The notes beneath the pieces are model-generated. The model had not been told where the DNA came from and searched no databases. It was given only the letters and a program-made list of their open reading frames with translations. From IMG/VR virus record IMGVR_UViG_2737471834_000004: a stretch of 6,265 nucleotides of DNA; one strand, 5' to 3'. Below, piece after piece: positions 118 to 6,177 of this stretch (the stretch's first letter is position 1; every line of letters begins with the position of its first letter). The stretch comes from a virus (lineage: Duplodnaviria; Heunggongvirae; Uroviricota; Caudoviricetes). The translations under genes and the position numbers were made by a program.

Positions 118-2790
118 TTACTGAATACCGTATTTCTTCTCGCGGACAGAAAACGCAATATGTCCGCCTTCAAGGATAGAGCAAATATGATGTCTTATAC
201 CTTGTTGCATTCTTATATTACCATCTTCTATTGCTCCCACTTCATAACTGATAACATCACCATCATAATTAGCAACAATTACTTGTTCTGAATCAGAGTT
301 AATAACCAGATTTGCATTGTGTGTAACAATGATTACTTGTCGATATTTTTTTATTTTTTTGAACAAAGGAACCAATTGCTTCATAATAAAACTATTATCA
401 AGATCATCCTCTGGCTGATCAAATACAAATGGGCTACCAAAAGGATCTGTTGCAAGTTTCAAGCTTACATAAAAAGTCCCACGCTGGCCAACTGATAGTT
501 GGTCAACAGTCTTACCTTTATAGGTAAATTCCGCATTAACATATAAATAATTCTTTATCTTTTCTGGAGAAAACAAATAATGCATTAATTCATATCGTCC
601 TCCTTGATTAAAGTACTCACTTTTCCAGAAAAAATCCTCTATTGTAATTAATTCACCATCTCCATCCGTGCTAATTACTTTATCATTGTTTAACAGCTTA
701 ACAAAATCAGTATATGATTGTACATTAAATGTATCCGTTAACTTTTGTCGTGTTGATTTTTCATTTGATGCTCTAAATTTCCCGCGATTAATACAACCTT
801 CTAATCCTGCATAGAACTTATCATTATCAAAGATAATTGACCCACGAATATTTATGTCGGATAAAATATCTCTAACAATCTGGTTTTGCTCTTTGTTCCA
901 ACTATCATTTTCAATATGAAGAGAATCGTATAAAGATTGTATTTCTGTAACTTGCTCTTCTATATATTTACTATATTTCACTGCAAAATCACTGCGCTCT
1001 CTTACATAAGCAAAGTATCGTTTTTTATTTTCCTCTATTTCTTTTATTTTAGCCTTCGCTTTATCTATGTTTTCTTGATATTCACTTAACTTACTTAACA
1101 ACGATGACACATCCTGATTAATACCTTGATCAAGGAAAGATTTTTTAATTTCTTCATTTTTTAACCTCACAGCCTCTATATCATCATTAATCACACGAGC
1201 ATTTTTTTCTAAAATCTCATAGTAAACAGAAGCATCTGTCAAAGGTAATTCAGGCACAATAACAGATAATTCATTGTAACTTTTAATACGTTCGTTAATT
1301 TCAGAAAAACCTCTTCGAATAAAAGCAATCAACTCTTGATTTCTACTCAATGCCAACTGGAGTTTGTTAATTGACTCAGAATTTTTCTGATATTCAACAA
1401 TGAGTTCTTTATTTTTAGGATTAGTTAATGTTTCAGTTAGCTTTTGATTTTCTTCAATAATTTTTGTCTGGAATGCATCAGTATTAATTCTATTTCCATA
1501 ATTATCTGATTGCGTCCAATAATCTACGAACGTTCTATATTTCGAAAGATTATCTAGCAATAAACTCATATTTGCAGAGTCATATTGTTTTTCTCTAATC
1601 CCAAGCATTCTTTTAATTTCACTGCTTAGGCTTTCTGGATTTTTTGCAAAATTAACAATGTCACCTTGTGAAACATGGAGATAACTATATGGTGATGAAT
1701 TCTCCGAGTTAAACAAAATAGAGGATTCTTCACCATAACCTTTATCTAAGAATACACTTACACCTTTAGCGACCACGTTTCTTTCCGATGTTAAAAAGGA
1801 ATCTGGCATTAATACTTTTTTCATTGCATCAAGGAATATACTTTTCCCAGTGCCTCTACCACCAATTATTGAAACCATATTCCTATTTAATGGTATTGTC
1901 TGTTCTTTAAAGGAAAGATTATTTCCCTCGAAAATATTACCTGATAAATTTATCTGACTAAAATACGGTTTAACGTATGATAAATCAATAAAATCATCTG
2001 ATTGTTGAACCCTTTCCGCTGGCTCAAATAGAGTTTGTCGTAACCCTTGGAATGACGGCTTTGCTTTTACCCAAGTATATTTACTACCAATCTGATTAAA
2101 ATCATGTGCATCAGAGCATACAAAAACTGGTTTTCTAGGAGCATCTTCATATCGTGTATCTGATAAAAAGAAATCACGATCTCTGGGCCGCCCCAATACA
2201 ATATCCCCTAATTTATCGATTTCTTTTGCAACAGCGACCGAACGCCCCTCTTTCTTCTCTGGGTGAAATCCACCATATCCATTAGGACAAATCGCTATAA
2301 AGAAATCCCTGCCAATAACAAAGTCATTTTTTAGGCCTTCGCACAATGTTTCATAATTGATAATTGCCTCATTAAAGTTAATACCCGACTCATCCATAGA
2401 ATCTTTACTACACCAAATAGTCTTTCCATCATCTGTGGTGTTTTGAAGTTTTATTCTTGATAACACCTTATTTATTTTTTCTGATGGTATATCTTCAGAA
2501 AAAATTGCATGTATATTTATCCACTCACCAGATTTATTGGGCTGCGCAATTCTAAATTCAATATTTGCCAATATACACACAGCATATTCTTTCTCAGAAA
2601 ATTTCTTGCGTATAGTTTCAAGCTCATCTTTTGCTAAAAACCAATAATTTGTCACAGCAATAAGTTTTAAATTATTTTTAATAACAGCATCAACATATAA
2701 ATCAATATCCTTTGGTTGATAGTTGTTATTGACATGCGTTAATGGTGAATGTATGTGAAGATCCCATTTATTCCAAGTTGAACCAATCAT
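118..2790 (-). CDS. PHP-domain phosphoesterase fused to SMC/Rad50-like ABC ATPase with coiled-coil insert; candidate anti-phage defence protein
   Basis: Uninterrupted 890-codon ORF, ATG at 2790-2788, TAA at 120-118, AGGA about 7 nt upstream of the ATG. Hand-counted motifs: PHP motif I DLHIHS (aa 10-15) and terminal SDAH (aa 226-229); Walker A GGRGTGKS (aa 309-316); K/E/Q/L-rich region aa ~440-650; ABC signature-like LSVGQ (aa 765-769); Walker B-like FVFDQPEDDLD (aa 788-798); H-loop VTHN (aa 822-825). Strongly AT-rich, Asn/Lys/Ile-rich codon usage unlike the flanking P4 core. Confidence 0.85.
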   Translation of the reverse strand: MIGSTWNKWDLHIHSPLTHVNNNYQPKDIDLYVDAVIKNNLKLIAVTNYWFLAKDELETIRKKFSEKEYAVCILANIEFRIAQPNKSGEWINIHAIFSEDIPSEKINKVLSRIKLQNTTDDGKTIWCSKDSMDESGINFNEAIINYETLCEGLKNDFVIGRDFFIAICPNGYGGFHPEKKEGRSVAVAKEIDKLGDIVLGRPRDRDFFLSDTRYEDAPRKPVFVCSDAHDFNQIGSKYTWVKAKPSFQGLRQTLFEPAERVQQSDDFIDLSYVKPYFSQINLSGNIFEGNNLSFKEQTIPLNRNMVSIIGGRGTGKSIFLDAMKKVLMPDSFLTSERNVVAKGVSVFLDKGYGEESSILFNSENSSPYSYLHVSQGDIVNFAKNPESLSSEIKRMLGIREKQYDSANMSLLLDNLSKYRTFVDYWTQSDNYGNRINTDAFQTKIIEENQKLTETLTNPKNKELIVEYQKNSESINKLQLALSRNQELIAFIRRGFSEINERIKSYNELSVIVPELPLTDASVYYEILEKNARVINDDIEAVRLKNEEIKKSFLDQGINQDVSSLLSKLSEYQENIDKAKAKIKEIEENKKRYFAYVRERSDFAVKYSKYIEEQVTEIQSLYDSLHIENDSWNKEQNQIVRDILSDINIRGSIIFDNDKFYAGLEGCINRGKFRASNEKSTRQKLTDTFNVQSYTDFVKLLNNDKVISTDGDGELITIEDFFWKSEYFNQGGRYELMHYLFSPEKIKNYLYVNAEFTYKGKTVDQLSVGQRGTFYVSLKLATDPFGSPFVFDQPEDDLDNSFIMKQLVPLFKKIKKYRQVIIVTHNANLVINSDSEQVIVANYDGDVISYEVGAIEDGNIRMQQGIRHHICSILEGGHIAFSVREKKYGIQ

Positions 2791-3023: not shown

Positions 3024-3042
3024 GTGCTTTCCCCGCCTCGCC
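3024..3042 (-). other. cos: cos site (19-nt P2/P4-type cohesive end)
   Basis: Plus strand gtgctttccccgcctcgcc is the reverse complement of GGCGAGGCGGGGAAAGCAC, which I recall as the P2/P4 cohesive-end sequence. It lies downstream of psu, as in P4. Confidence 0.75.
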
Positions 3043-3207: not shown

Positions 3208-3780
3208 TTACACAGACTGACGTGATGCCAGTTCTGCACTTTTACGCGAAAAAATCATGTTCTGCGCAGGGGTGAATTTTTCACGGCTGTCATCCACCGA
3301 AGCCGCGTCAGGCCTGAATCCGATGGTCGTTAAAATGTTGCTATCCTGTGCGGAATAATTAATTTTTTCCCCCTTCGCAAGCCAGGACAGAAGGGCTTCA
3401 CGCAGGGCATCTGTGGCACGCTGTATGGCACAGTTTCGGGCAATGGCCGTCAGCTCACTGTAGCCCATCAGCTCCGGTGCCAGTGCGGCCGCCAGTGCTG
3501 TGCCGTGCTGCTGCATAAAATCATTCAGCCGCTCGCGGATGCTGATGTGCTGAACGGCTTCATGCGAACGAACATAACGACCGGCGGCCTGATTCACCTG
3601 CCATTTTCTGACTTCGATAATATTGCGTAATTCGTCCAGGCGACTGACGTTTCTGCCTTCCCCGGACAGAAGCCGCAGATATTCCTGTTCGGCTGCCGCC
3701 AGTTCATTTTTGCGCTGAAGCCATGCCGCTTTGTTATTCTGGCAGACCTCAAAAGCCTGCTGTAATGACATTGTGGTCAC
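3208..3780 (-). CDS. psu: Psu (polarity suppression protein; Rho antagonist and capsid decoration protein)
   Basis: 190-aa ORF, the size I recall for P4 Psu, in the expected position after delta and before cos. The codon at 3780-3778 is GTG with AGGAGA about 7 nt upstream; an alternative ATG lies at 3771-3769. Identity asserted from memory, not searched. Confidence 0.85.
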   Translation of the reverse strand: MTTMSLQQAFEVCQNNKAAWLQRKNELAAAEQEYLRLLSGEGRNVSRLDELRNIIEVRKWQVNQAAGRYVRSHEAVQHISIRERLNDFMQQHGTALAAALAPELMGYSELTAIARNCAIQRATDALREALLSWLAKGEKINYSAQDSNILTTIGFRPDAASVDDSREKFTPAQNMIFSRKSAELASRQSV

Positions 3781-3794
3781 ACCCCGTCTCCTGA

Positions 3795-4040
3795 TTAATG
3801 GTTGAATGGTGAGCTGTAACAGCCTTTAACTTTTCGGACAACAGCCGGTGCTGTGCTTACCGGTGCTGGTTTTTCCTCCGTGACCGGAGAACGAATCACG
3901 GCACAAATTGACTCATGCGTTTTAAATGTCGCCGAACAGTAAATATTCTGGCACTGCAGATAACTTTCTTTGACATTGTCACTCACATACCGGCTGGTGC
4001 GGGTATGCGCTGAATGACGACAGAAAGGGCAGCGCATCAT
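3795..4040 (-). CDS. delta: Delta/Ogr-family zinc-finger late-gene activator, single-domain form
   Basis: 81 aa with C-x2-C...C-x4-C (CPFC ... CQNIYC) typical of the Ogr/Delta family. ATG at 4040-4038 overlaps the sid stop as ATGA (4037-4040). Located between sid and psu as in P4. Confidence 0.85.
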   Translation of the reverse strand: MMRCPFCRHSAHTRTSRYVSDNVKESYLQCQNIYCSATFKTHESICAVIRSPVTEEKPAPVSTAPAVVRKVKGCYSSPFNH

Positions 4041-4771
4041 GACAGCAGTCCTCTGGCCTTAAGCTCTGCTCCCTGCTGGTCTATTTTGTCCTGCCACACC
4101 TTGCGCTGTGCCGGTGTGCCTGCCACCTCATAATCCATGTGCGGGAGTGTTGCCGCTGACAGCCCGGTCAGCCGGAGAACCGGCTCGCCGCTGAGGCTGA
4201 TTTGTATCTGTTTAATTTTCTGTTCCAGCGATGATTTCACCTGCTGCATGACAGCCTTTTCCGGTGCGACGTAGCCCTGATGGCCGGTGGTGTTGGCGAG
4301 CGGATTTTCCTGTACCAGGATGCTCAGATGCATTGCCCGGACAAGCACCTCACAGGTTTCATTCAGGGCGTGTTCCAGCTCATGCTCTGCATACAGACTC
4401 AGAAGGTGATGATGTGCCTTCCGGTAGGCGGTGGCCGTGCTGTCACACGCCCCTTTCAGGCGTTCACGTTCGAAATTCAGCACCACGGCCAGATTGTCAT
4501 ATTCCTGTACCAGCTCCCGGCGTGCCACGCGCTCAATGTGGCGCTGTTTCAGCTCGTCGCTCAGGACACCACCGGCTGCACGAAAGGCCGTGCGCCAGTC
4601 GTCAGCGTCGTTTCCGTCGGCCTGCGTCAGCGCATTTTTTTCCTGCTCTGCCCGTTCAATGGCCGTGACGGTCTCATCCATCAGGCGGGCGTTCTCAAGA
4701 TGGGCGGCTCTGGACTTTTCCAGTTGTGCCAGTGCGGGTTGCAGATATTCAGGGATAGTGTGGTCAGACAT
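4037..4771 (-). CDS. sid: Sid (capsid size determination, external scaffold)
   Basis: Start placed at the ATG 4771-4769 (MSDHTIPEYLQ...), giving 244 aa, the size I recall for P4 Sid, with GAGGAG 8 nt upstream. The ORF-track start at 4837 is rejected because it lies upstream of the predicted Psid start site. First gene of the sid-delta-psu operon. Confidence 0.85.
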   Translation of the reverse strand: MSDHTIPEYLQPALAQLEKSRAAHLENARLMDETVTAIERAEQEKNALTQADGNDADDWRTAFRAAGGVLSDELKQRHIERVARRELVQEYDNLAVVLNFERERLKGACDSTATAYRKAHHHLLSLYAEHELEHALNETCEVLVRAMHLSILVQENPLANTTGHQGYVAPEKAVMQQVKSSLEQKIKQIQISLSGEPVLRLTGLSAATLPHMDYEVAGTPAQRKVWQDKIDQQGAELKARGLLS

Positions 4772-4861
4772 TTTCCGGCTCCTCGTCACTTCAGGTTGAG
4801 AAAATTGTGACGTACACCGGACAACAACACGACGCATTGCAGATGTGCCAGCCCTGACACA
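4772..4861 (-). promoter_or_regulatory. Psid late promoter with Delta/Ogr box
   Basis: TGT-N12-ACA dyad (tgtgccagccctgacaca) at 4844-4861. Placing its centre near -55, as for P2/P4 late promoters, puts the start site near 4797, downstream of the ATG at 4837 and upstream of the sid ATG at 4771. Confidence 0.55.
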
Positions 4862-4915
4862 GGAGACTCATCCTCAGACCGGCAAGCCAGGAAAAGGTCG
4901 CAGGAAAAACCGGCT

Positions 4916-5090
4916 TACTGTTTGTTTTTTTATATTTTACTGTTCACCTCTGTTCACCATAAGAAAAAAGATAAGTAATACAGTAAGTTAAAGGGTGAAC
5001 AATCGCAGTAATGACTGTTCACCGTCTGTTCACCACTGTTCACCCGTTGATGGGCTTTTTGTGCTGTTTATTACTGTTTGTTTTTATTAA
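4916..5090. repeat. crr-like iteron cluster (alpha-protein binding type I repeats, TGTTCACC)
   Basis: Direct copies of cTGTTCACC at 4940-4948, 4950-4958, 5015-5023, 5026-5034, 5036-5044 (10-11 bp phasing) and an inverted copy GGTGAACA at 4994-5001. Flanked by two copies of tactgtttgttttt(t)at at 4916-4933 and 5072-5087. TGTTCACC is the octamer I recall for P4 ori/crr. Confidence 0.65.
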
Positions 5091-5148
5091 TTCGTCGGGA
5101 ATGAATAAGAAAAAACGATTTGTATTTCACTATAAAAATTACGAATTG

Positions 5149-5178
5149 CTTTAAGTGGCTTTAAATGACTTTAAGTGG
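5149..5178 (+). promoter_or_regulatory. Three tandem 10-bp repeats upstream of PLL; candidate operator
   Basis: ctttaagtgg (5149-5158), ctttaaatga (5159-5168), ctttaagtgg (5169-5178), exactly contiguous and in helical phase, about 30 bp upstream of the PLL Delta box. Confidence 0.4.
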
Positions 5179-5203
5179 AGATGAACAAAAAACACACAAG
5201 CAT

Positions 5204-5275
5204 TGTAAGGCTGCCGGAACAAATCCCCCCTGTTGCGTCTGCTGAAAATATTCACAAAATAAAACGCTACCCGAA
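5204..5275 (+). promoter_or_regulatory. PLL (Delta-activated late-left promoter) with Delta/Ogr box
   Basis: TGT-N12-ACA (tgtaaggctgccggaaca) at 5204-5221. Predicted start site near 5268, about 55 nt upstream of the vis ATG and about 395 nt upstream of the candidate PLE start site, matching the ~400 nt PLL-PLE spacing reported for P4. Confidence 0.5.
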
Positions 5276-5323
5276 GCCGGACGGACTTATCCGGTGCTGT
5301 ATGGACATTAACGAGGTAGCCCG

Positions 5324-5590
5324 ATGCAAGCTGTTTTTTCTTCCCCGTCTCCTGCCCCTGTGACGCCACTGATGCCGCTGCCGGACATCACACAGGAGCG
5401 TTTTTTACGTCTGCCGGAAGTGATGCACCTGTGCGGCCTGTCACGCTCGACCATCTATGAACTCATCCGTAAGGGGGAATTTCCGCCGCAGGTGAGTCTT
5501 GGCGGTAAAAATGTGGCCTGGCTGCACTCTGAAGTCACCGCATGGATGGCCGGCCGCATTGCCGGACGCAAACGGGGGTATGACGCATGA
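5324..5590 (+). CDS. vis: Vis / AlpA-family helix-turn-helix regulator
   Basis: 88 aa with AlpA-like HTH core ([29 protein letters not shown] ... [12 protein letters not shown]). GAGG 7 nt upstream of the ATG at 5324. First ORF downstream of the PLL candidate, as for P4 vis; stop TGA overlaps the next ORF start as ATGA (5587-5590). Confidence 0.75.
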
Positions 5591-6177
5591 TGATGCCCGC
5601 TCTGCAAAAACTCCCTTTTTCTGGCTTGCCTTTTTCCGGCATTTGCGGATATAGTTTTTCCGTTGCCGCAAAATCGGCAGCCGGGCGTGAGAACCCGTGT
5701 AACTCGAAGGCGACATATGACGCGCCATGCGTCTTTTTTTGTGTCGCAATCAACGCCACAGAGCGCCAGATTATGGTGTGGCGTGTGGTTTGCCGTGCAG
5801 GTATGATCCTGTTCGCAATCGCATGTTATGCCACTGAGTCAATGGTAGCTCAGGCGGGGCAGCCTCCGGGCTGGCCGGTATTCTTCGAGGCCGGTATTCT
5901 CACCCCCGTCTGGGCTATCGCCATCGAGCGTGAGAACTCCGGCGATAGCAGTTATTTGCTACTCGAAGGAGGCTGCCTTATGGCTACAACCCTTACCCCC
6001 TCACACCCTGAATTTGTCTTTGTGTTTGCGGCTGTCCGTCGCGCAGACCGTCATCCCCGTATCTGCATGCTTCGCACCGTCGCCGGTGATGAACGCAGCG
6101 CCCGCCGTTCCCTTGTCCGTGACTATGTGCTCTCCCTTGCTGCCCGTCTGCCGGTGGTGGAGGTGTCCCGTGCGTAA
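5587..6177 (+). CDS. eta: Eta-like ORF (long nested ORF of the left operon)
   Basis: 196-codon ORF beginning with three consecutive ATGs (MMM) and overlapping the vis stop. P4 eta is described as 197-199 aa with three possible starts, beginning upstream of PLE and containing kil in frame. The amino-acid composition is unusual, so protein-level function is uncertain. Confidence 0.5.
5626..5655 (+). promoter_or_regulatory. Candidate PLE (constitutive early-left promoter) inside eta
   Basis: -35 TTGCCT (5626-5631), 18-nt spacer, -10 TATAGT (5650-5655). Located inside eta and upstream of kil, consistent with P4. Confidence 0.45.
5980..6177 (+). CDS. kil: Kil-like small protein (65 aa), nested in-frame in eta
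   Basis: ATG at 5980 preceded by AAGGAGG (5966-5972) with 7-nt spacing. The 65-aa product matches the reported size of P4 Kil. Ends with a double stop TAATAA (6175-6180). Confidence 0.6.

What the first reader, a model, noticed from the sequence alone, without database searches (positions are those of the whole stretch)
5149..5178. Three perfectly phased tandem decamers upstream of PLL
ctttaagtgg / ctttaaatga / ctttaagtgg are contiguous 10-bp units, so successive sites lie on the same helical face. This is typical of a multimeric regulator operator. Vis is reported to repress PLL and stimulate Psid, so these may be Vis sites, though other binders such as IHF or alpha are possible. I do not recall this motif being described.
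Basis: inference. Interest (0 to 1): 0.4.

Follow-up and report, generated by a model that had tools for sequence, protein, structure and literature searches.

The report
Helper-phage Cox boxes upstream of P4 PLL
The three tandem 10-bp repeats are real but already catalogued in satellite phage P4 as "ori type 2 repeats", and they match the binding boxes through which helper phage P2's Cox protein switches on the satellite's late promoter, not a site for the satellite's own Vis protein.

Summary
CTTTAAGTGG/CTTTAAATGA/CTTTAAGTGG lie contiguously at 5149-5178, and 0 of 2000 shuffles reach this periodicity. The window is a P4-type satellite prophage, about 98% identical to P4 here. The decamers are base-for-base the three "ori type 2 repeat" features of GenBank X51522, so the motif has been described.

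Read on the minus strand, the units are TTAAAGTCA, TTAAAGCCA and TTAAAGCAA. These match the published P2 Cox "cox-box" TTAAA(G/C)NC(A/C) at 9/9, 9/9 and 8/9, 10 bp apart and facing away from PLL. They form the best Cox-box chain in the window and in the whole P4 genome. Published work places the Cox site upstream of PLL.

The Vis reading is not supported. Across 40 relatives the Vis helix-turn-helix region is nearly invariant while this array changes completely. Alpha iterons, IHF and Int arm sites do not match either.

New comparative point: the slot is a divergence hotspot between conserved flanks. Other satellites carry phased arrays there that match phage 186 Apl operators (TTGCCA; 20 of 40 loci) or, tentatively, WPhi-type Cox repeats. 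This suggests an exchangeable sensor for the helper's excisionase/regulator.

The finding itself is already known; the sensor-swap reading is inferred and untested.

The parts
5149..5178 (+). Three contiguous decamers, identical to the P4 'ori type 2 repeats' (X51522 9176-9205).
   Evidence: 100% identical to P4. 0 of 2000 shuffles reach the periodicity.
5166..5174 (-). cox-box 1, TTAAAGTCA (9/9 to TTAAASNCM). Closest to PLL and facing away from it.
   Evidence: consensus from PMC3936717.
5156..5164 (-). cox-box 2, TTAAAGCCA (9/9).
5146..5154 (-). cox-box 3, TTAAAGCAA (8/9).
5121..5185 (-). Possible extended Cox-protected stretch with weaker boxes (7/9): TTCATCTCC at 5177-5185, TTATAGTGA at 5127-5135, TGAAATACA at 5121-5129.
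   Evidence: This is inferred; the literature says at least 6 boxes and at least 70 nt are protected, but the footprint coordinates could not be retrieved.
5204..5221 (+). TGT-N12-ACA dyad, the presumed Delta/Ogr activator site of PLL.
   Evidence: The role of the motif is established knowledge of P2/P4 late promoters; its assignment here is inferred.
5256..5272 (+). Inferred PLL -10 (TAAAAC, 5260-5265) and start region. No sigma-70 consensus, as expected for an activator-dependent promoter.
   Evidence: The block is conserved in all relatives. The position is inferred from the -55 rule for TGT-N12-ACA.
5324..5590 (+). vis (AlpA family, 88 aa), the first gene downstream of PLL.
4941..5044 (.). 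ori type 1 iterons TGTTCACC (the alpha-protein sites in P4): 4941-4948, 4951-4958, 4994-5001 (inverted), 5016-5023, 5027-5034, 5037-5044.
   Evidence: Arrangement and sequence are conserved across genera.
5045..5148 (.). A+T-rich spacer between the type 1 iterons and the type 2 array.
4844..4861 (+). TGT-N12-ACA dyad on the Psid side (divergent late promoter for sid-delta-psu).
   Evidence: the assignment is inferred.

Best explanation
The three decamers are the 'type 2 repeats' of the phage P4 ori-PLL control region. Read on the minus strand they are three head-to-tail cox-boxes, the recognition units of the helper phage P2 Cox protein. Cox is a winged-helix excisionase/repressor that polymerises into a filament, with one protomer per helical turn.

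Proposed mechanism: when a P2-type helper infects a cell carrying this satellite, Cox from the helper's early operon nucleates on these boxes. It spreads away from the promoter and wraps or bends the DNA just upstream of the Delta/Ogr site. This activates PLL. PLL transcription then expresses vis, epsilon and alpha, which leads to excision, replication and helper exploitation.

Shown here: the identity with P4's annotated repeats; the match, phasing, orientation and uniqueness of the cox-boxes; and the lack of fit to Vis, alpha, IHF and Int.

Taken from the literature: Cox binds upstream of PLL and activates it.

Inferred: that these three boxes are the core of that footprint, and the exact PLL start.
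For: 1. The window is 97.6% identical to P4 over 4700-5697. The decamers coincide exactly with three 'ori type 2 repeat' features.

2. The published cox-box consensus is TTAAA(G/C)NC(A/C), with boxes spaced 10-11 bp, at least 6 copies and at least 70 nt protected. [quoted passage not shown]

3. The only two exact consensus matches in the 6265-bp window lie inside the array. The third unit is a 1-mismatch box in 10-bp register, and all three are on the minus strand, facing away from PLL.

4. A PWM built only from P2's own Pc/attP boxes scores the array at 25.6 bits. That is z=7.6 within -280..-61 and z=5.8 within the 110-bp slot. It is the top 3-box chain in the whole window and in the whole 11.6-kb P4 genome; the next best scores 20.3.

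5. P2's own Pc operator has the same design: TAAAAGGCA/TATAAGACA/TTAAACGCA at 9-10 bp.

6. The RefSeq P2 cox annotation states that Cox activates the P4 late promoter.

7. Comparative support for a helper-specific binder. The array is a divergence hotspot between nearly invariant flanks. Relatives carry annotated-type 186 Apl operators in the same slot. WPhi Cox, which recognises a different repeat, is reported not to activate P4.
Against: The primary footprinting paper (Saha et al. 1989) and the Vis footprinting papers were not held, so I could not confirm base by base that the protected region covers 5146-5174.

The published consensus was derived partly from P4's own boxes, so agreement with it is partly circular. 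This is mitigated by the P2-only PWM.

Only three strong boxes are visible, whereas the literature speaks of at least six.

Counting loci with z>4, the P2-Cox PWM is not better than column-permuted decoys (3 loci versus 0-3), because few sampled elements belong to this class.

GenBank labels the repeats as part of ori, so a replication role is not excluded. The two roles could coexist.
Confidence: 0.8

Rival explanations
1. Replication-origin element. The type 2 repeats would be a structural or protein-binding part of P4 ori (bound by alpha, a host factor or a bending protein) that is needed for initiation rather than for transcription.
For: GenBank X51522 and NC_001609 annotate them as 'ori type 2 repeat' inside the rep_origin feature. 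They sit about 100 bp from the alpha iterons, across an A+T-rich spacer. A dual role alongside Cox binding is possible.
Against: crr, the second cis-acting replication region bound by alpha, has ten type 1 repeats and no type 2 repeats. Across genera the type 1 iterons keep their sequence and arrangement, while the type 2 slot changes to unrelated units. That is not expected for a site read by the conserved alpha protein or by a host factor. The decamers contain no TGTTCACC.
Confidence: 0.12
2. Vis operator. The satellite's own AlpA-family Vis protein would bind the decamers to repress PLL and stimulate Psid.
For: Vis is a recombination directionality factor, a class that typically binds phased direct repeats (PMC7498355). 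From my own knowledge of Polo et al. 1996, which I could not retrieve, Vis regulates PLL and Psid. The window's Vis differs from the non-E. coli Vis proteins at the end of the recognition helix ([13 protein letters not shown] versus YDLISREAFPKQI).
Against: Array class does not co-vary with Vis. Near-identical Vis proteins sit next to TTGCCA-, GGCCAAT-, GTGCGAGG- and CCCTTA-type arrays. E. coli elements with a swapped array have identical downstream leader and vis-start sequence, and two of them (L215 with the P2-type array, L216 with a different one) share one vis protein accession with the O157-type L209. No decamer-like cluster lies in the P4 int-attP interval, where Vis binds (PMC2603039).
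Confidence: 0.06
3. A host architectural protein site (IHF or Fis), or a chance or slippage repeat with no function.
For: The region is A+T-rich, and phased A/T tracts can bend DNA.
Against: No WATCAANNNNTTR match, even with one mismatch, lies between 5100 and 5230. The periodicity exceeds all 2000 shuffles. The array is 100% conserved between this prophage and P4, and 441 E. coli genomes carry the 73-bp segment containing it at 95% identity or more. Every relative keeps a phased array at this position.
Confidence: 0.02

Closest known systems
Phage P4 'ori type 2 repeats' (GenBank X51522/NC_001609, nt 9176-9205)
   Same: Identical 30-bp sequence. Identical position between the type 1 iterons and ORF88/vis. 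Identical flanks.
   Different: Nothing in the array itself. This copy is in a prophage relative with a different cargo (a Ppl-like defence gene) and a single-domain 81-aa Delta.
P2 Cox operator arrays (cox-boxes) at P2 Pc/Pe, at P2 attP and upstream of P4 PLL
   Same: 9-bp box TTAAA(G/C)NC(A/C). Direct repeats one helical turn apart. Directional. Located upstream of PLL and facing away from it.
   Different: At P2 Pc the boxes overlap the -10/-35 and repress. Here they lie upstream of the activator site and activate. The three boxes here are closer to consensus than P2's own.
Phage 186 Apl operators (TTGCCA hexamers at 10-11 bp; 7 at pR-pL, 5 at attP)
   Same: Same logic: a phased array of direct repeats for a filament-forming excisionase/regulator. 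Apl-type arrays occupy the equivalent slot in many P4-like satellites.
   Different: Different recognition sequence. This window scores null for Apl (z about 0).
WPhi Cox 12-nt direct repeats (CCTAGAA(A/G)GGAC) in the WPhi Pe-Pc region
   Same: A heteroimmune P2-family Cox with its own repeat. The O157-type satellites have (A/G)AAGGG(A/T)C units in the slot.
   Different: WPhi Cox is reported not to bind cox-boxes and not to activate P4. The resemblance of the O157-type array to the WPhi repeat is only partial (9/12 at best; z=4.7).

Membership tests
P4 ori type 2 repeats | Three contiguous 10-bp direct repeats with the P4 sequence CCACTTAAAG/TCATTTAAAG/CCACTTAAAG (P4 + strand) | tested here: met
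   30/30 identical in the alignment to X51522. Feature coordinates map to window 5149-5178.
P4 ori type 2 repeats | Location between the six type 1 iterons and ORF88/vis, inside the annotated rep_origin | tested here: met
   Same order and spacing as in P4.
P2 Cox operator (cox-box array) | Match to the consensus TTAAA(G/C)NC(A/C) | tested here: met
   9/9, 9/9 and 8/9 on the minus strand. These include the only exact matches in the window.
P2 Cox operator (cox-box array) | Direct repeats 10-11 bp apart | tested here: met
   Box starts at 5174, 5164 and 5154 give 10-bp spacing.
P2 Cox operator (cox-box array) | At least six boxes and at least 70 nt protected | tested here: inconclusive
   Three strong boxes plus three 7/9 boxes span 5121-5185. 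The footprint coordinates could not be retrieved.
P2 Cox operator (cox-box array) | In P4: upstream of PLL, with the first box facing away from the -10/-35 | tested here: met
   The array is at about -120..-90 from the inferred start, on the minus strand.
P2 Cox operator (cox-box array) | Physical binding by Cox and Cox-dependent activation of PLL | not testable with these tools
   Reported for P4 in the literature (PMC3936717 citing Saha 1989). Not measured for this copy, but the sequence is identical to P4.
Vis (AlpA-family RDF) operator | Repeat sequence co-varies with the Vis DNA-binding region across relatives | tested here: not met
   The HTH/wing is invariant across at least 5 array classes.
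Vis (AlpA-family RDF) operator | Similar repeats at the P4 int-attP interval, where Vis binds | tested here: not met
   No decamer (2 or fewer mismatches) between 3900 and 4100 of P4. The actual Vis box sequences could not be retrieved, so this test is indirect.
Alpha-protein iterons (type 1) | Octamer TGTTCACC, present in both ori and crr | tested here: not met
   The decamers lack the octamer, and crr has no type 2 repeats.
IHF site | WATCAANNNNTTR | tested here: not met
   No match with 1 or fewer mismatches in 5100-5230.
Int arm-type sites | P4 arm repeat TTGGGGGCAT | tested here: not met
   Unrelated sequence.

The most novel reading that the evidence does not exclude
The 'type 2 repeat' slot of P4-like satellites may be a modular, exchangeable sensor for the helper phage's excisionase/regulator (Cox or Apl). 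The ori iterons, the PLL core and Vis stay conserved. The 30-60 bp array between them has been swapped repeatedly for phased operators of different helper specificities: P2 Cox boxes (this window; 441 E. coli genomes), WPhi-like repeats (O157-type; 280 genomes), 186 Apl hexamers (most non-E. coli Enterobacterales; 45 E. coli genomes), and several unassigned types. On this reading the array sequence determines which helper can wake a given satellite. I found no description of this in the held literature; the large P4-like survey, PMC8628076, does not mention Cox.
Probability: 0.55. Interest if true: 0.6.

Novelty: already known. Interest (0 to 1): 0.25.

Why it matters
For this window the result is a clean-up. 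The repeats are a catalogued P4 feature, and the most probable binder is the helper's Cox, not Vis. This corrects the proposed experiment: footprint with P2 Cox first.

The wider value lies in the comparison. If the slot is a swappable helper-RDF sensor, then helper range at the induction step could be read directly from satellite sequence. That step is distinct from capsid hijacking and late-gene cross-activation. It would explain why WPhi Cox does not activate P4. It would also give a simple handle for predicting or engineering which P2-family phage mobilises which of the very common P4-like islands and their defence cargo.

Tried and rejected
- **Primary papers.** The papers with footprints (Saha 1989, PMC287370; Eriksson 2000, PMC111415; Lindqvist 1993, PMC372931; Lewis and Hatfull 2001, PMC55702; Polo 1996; Cali 2004; Liu 1999, PMC113030) are not held. 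Exact Cox and Vis footprint coordinates therefore remain unverified.
- **Full-text searches.** Searches for the type II repeats and for TGTTCACC gave only noise.
- **Viral-contig scans.** Scans with 186 Apl and P2 Cox returned almost only identical copies, so they added no operator diversity.
- **IHF.** No consensus match near the array. Rejected.
- **Int arm sites.** Unrelated sequence. Rejected.
- **Alpha iterons.** Different motif, and absent from crr. Rejected.
- **Vis.** No co-variation with the array. Rejected as the main binder.
- **Sigma-70 promoter scan.** Nothing found in 4780-5340. This is consistent with activator-dependent promoters but is no help in fixing the PLL +1.
- **Decoy control for the P2-Cox PWM.** Not discriminating by locus count (3 versus 0-3).
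- **WPhi and P88 PWMs.** They rest on 3-4 sites and cross-react on the GGCCAAT class, so those assignments are tentative.
- **Co-residence of array class with helper type.** This could not be tabulated, because search outputs list only a subset of records.

Full report
**What the window is.** ORFs and Pfam hits identify Psu (3208-3780, minus strand), an 81-aa Ogr/Delta protein (3795-4040, minus), Sid (4037-4771, minus) and an AlpA-family Vis (5324-5590, plus). An exact P2/P4 cos site lies at 3024-3042. The C4/isrK immunity RNAs lie at 5649-5925. BLAST of 4700-5700 gives 97.6% identity to phage P4, X51522/NC_001609. The window is therefore a P4-type satellite prophage. The plus strand here corresponds to the leftward (PLL) direction of P4.

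**Observation.** The three decamers are present exactly as described. Tandem Repeats Finder and the repeat finder both detect them. Lag-10 identity is 17/20; none of 2000 shuffles reached that value, and the highest was 16. The array lies 25 bp upstream of a TGT-N12-ACA dyad at 5204-5221. That dyad is the hallmark of Ogr/Delta-dependent late promoters (established knowledge). The array also lies 146 bp upstream of the vis ATG. Using the usual -55 position of the dyad, the PLL start falls near 5268-5272 and the array at about -120 to -90 (inference). No sigma-70 consensus promoter is present, as expected.

**Already described.** In X51522 and NC_001609 the three units are annotated individually as 'ori type 2 repeat' (9176-9185, 9186-9195, 9196-9205). 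They sit beside six 'ori type 1 repeats' (TGTTCACC) inside the rep_origin feature. A pairwise alignment shows the 30 bp are identical and in register with window 5149-5178. The older record X02534 also marks 'imperfect direct repeat 3/3'' there.

**What binds it.**
- P2 Cox activates the P4 late promoter PLL and is required for derepression of P4 prophage. [quoted passage not shown]
- Cox protects at least 70 nt containing at least 6 cox-boxes of consensus TTAAA(G/C)NC(A/C). Box starts are spaced 10-11 bp, one protomer per helical turn of a Cox filament.
- In P4 the first box faces away from the -10/-35 (PMC3936717; PMC5009727).
- On the minus strand the decamers read TTAAAGTCA (5174-5166), TTAAAGCCA (5164-5156) and TTAAAGCAA (5154-5146). 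These match at 9/9, 9/9 and 8/9, sit exactly 10 bp apart, and point away from PLL.
- The two exact matches are the only ones in the whole window.
- To avoid circularity, I built a PWM from P2's own Pc and attP boxes only. That includes the Pc operator TAAAAGGCA/TATAAGACA/TTAAACGCA, which overlaps the annotated Pc -10/-35.
- With that PWM the array scores 25.6 bits, which is z=7.6 (z=5.8 in the narrower slot). It is the best 3-box chain in the window and in the entire P4 genome; the next best scores 20.3.
- I could not retrieve the original footprint paper. The step 'these three boxes are the core of the Cox footprint' is therefore a strong inference, not a reading of the data.

**Rivals.**
- *Alpha.* Its iterons are the separate TGTTCACC array at 4941-5044. 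crr, the other alpha-binding region, has ten type 1 repeats and no type 2 repeats.
- *IHF.* No consensus match lies near the array.
- *Int arm sites.* These are TTGGGGGCAT, which is unrelated.
- *Vis.* See the comparative test below.

A Vis-based scan of one genome per species returned 42 loci from many Enterobacterales genera.
- The layout is conserved in all loci with enough upstream sequence: Psid dyad, type 1 iterons (2 + 1 inverted + 3), A+T-rich spacer, a phased repeat array, PLL core, vis.
- The type 1 iterons and the roughly 100 bp next to the promoter keep their sequence. The array does not.
- Only the window, P4 and L004 have the CTTTAAGTGG type. L207 has a related cox-box-like array.
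- Most others have (T/A)TTGCCA units every 10-11 bp, with 3-6 copies. In two loci (L014, L040) these are inverted.
- The annotated Apl operators of coliphage 186 are exactly of this kind. At attP they read ATTGCCAttgTTTGCCAataATTACCtattATTCGCCA. At pR-pL there are seven TTGCCA-like hexamers on the other strand.
- A PWM from the 12 annotated Apl sites gives z>4 chains in 20 of 40 satellite slots, against 0-3 for 25 column-permuted decoys. The chains fall at -134 to -187 from the vis ATG, which is the same slot.
- The two classes are mutually exclusive: the window is null for Apl, and the Apl-type loci are null for Cox.

**Within E. coli.**
- 1069 of 5426 complete genomes carry this ori-PLL region.
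- Only 441 carry the 73-bp decamer segment.
- 280 carry the array of the O157-type element instead, and 45 carry an Apl-type array.
- Alignments show nearly invariant flanks with the differences concentrated in the array columns. For example, CTTTAAGTGG/CTTTAAATGA/CTTTAAGTGG is replaced by CCTTCAGAAC/CCTTTGAGAC/CCTTCCAGTC, still 3 x 10 bp. A further variant occurs in L216.
- Read on the minus strand, the O157-type units share an (A/G)AAGGG(A/T)C core with the 12-nt direct repeats CCTAGAA(A/G)GGAC in the WPhi C-cox region (z=4.7; 9/12 at best). L015 matches the WPhi-derived PWM better (z=6.3).
- The literature states that WPhi Cox recognises a 12-nt direct repeat, does not bind cox-boxes and does not activate P4.
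- These WPhi-type and P88-type assignments rest on 3-4 sites and are tentative. About seven loci remain unassigned.

**Vis excluded as the specific reader.** The Vis HTH/wing ([38 protein letters not shown]) is essentially invariant across loci with TTGCCA-, GGCCAAT-, GTGCGAGG-, TGCA- and CCCTTA-type arrays. L022 and L027 differ by a single residue. E. coli elements with swapped arrays have identical leader and vis-start sequence. L215 (P2-type array), L216 (a different array) and the O157-type L209 even share one vis protein accession. No decamer cluster occurs in the P4 int-attP interval, where Vis is reported to bind. A reader that varies independently of every satellite-encoded DNA-binding protein, and that matches operators of three helper lineages, is best explained as the helper's own Cox/Apl.

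**Verdict.**
- The general idea of a phased operator for a multimeric regulator is right.
- The proposed binder (Vis) and the claim of novelty are not supported.
- The element is the known P4 type 2 repeat array. It most probably forms the core cox-boxes through which a P2-type helper activates PLL (confidence about 0.8).
- A replication role implied by the GenBank label is not excluded, but the comparison does not favour it.
- The by-product, that this slot is an exchangeable helper-RDF sensor, is not mentioned in the held literature, including the main survey of P4-like elements. It is inferred from sequence only. The sampled loci are phylogenetically related, so counts of loci are not counts of independent events.

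Noticed in passing
window 118-2790 (-): An 890-aa ORF. The strongest PADLOC hit is Ppl (E=5e-25, C-terminal part). Pfam finds SMC_N/AAA_29 ATPase motifs. This looks like an anti-phage defence cargo gene in the variable region next to cos of this P4-like element.
   Followed up: partly
window 3024-3042 (-): Exact 19-nt P2/P4 cohesive-end (cos) sequence GGCGAGGCGGGGAAAGCAC, between psu and the cargo gene.
   Followed up: partly
window 3795-4040 (-): Delta is only 81 aa with a single Ogr_Delta zinc-finger domain. P4 Delta is annotated as 166 aa.
   Followed up: no
window 5649-5925 (+): Rfam hits above the gathering score: c4-a1b1 (5649-5701), isrK (5662-5739) and C4 antisense RNA (5838-5925). This is the P4-type RNA immunity system downstream of vis.
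   Followed up: no
window 4806-4823 (+): A second TGT-N12-ACA dyad, 38 bp from the one at 4844-4861 on the Psid side. It lies upstream of the P4-type Sid start codon (4771), in the region read by the extended 266-aa ORF. Its role is unclear.
   Followed up: no
L209:600-640; L216:345-395; L207 about -190..-140 from vis: E. coli P4-like prophages with nearly identical flanks carry completely different 3 x 10-bp arrays in place of the decamers. The slot is a divergence/recombination hotspot. The L216 variant matches no helper operator that I tested.
   Followed up: partly
L009, L022, L042, L031, L038, L028, L037 (slot -220..-110 from vis): Phased arrays of other unit types (GCTTCT, GTGCGAGG/TGCAC, TGCA-type) that match none of the four helper-derived PWMs. 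They may correspond to uncharacterised P2-family Cox/Apl specificities.
   Followed up: no
L214 (P4) about 10870-10899 (-) and 4060-4075: The second-best Cox 3-box chain in P4 (20.3 bits) lies near the start of psu and is not conserved in this window. A single TTAAAGGGA lies in the int-attP interval. Significance unknown.
   Followed up: no
L212:385-425 (phage P88_4B11 C-cox region) versus L013/L020/L032/L035: The P88-type phage has AAATAAGCCG/ATATAAGCCA/TTTTGAGCCA boxes upstream of cox. The GGCCAAT-class satellites carry similar units: AATAATGGCCA in all four, plus ATATAAGCCA in L013 and ATATAGGCCA in L020/L032/L035. This may be a fourth helper class.
   Followed up: partly
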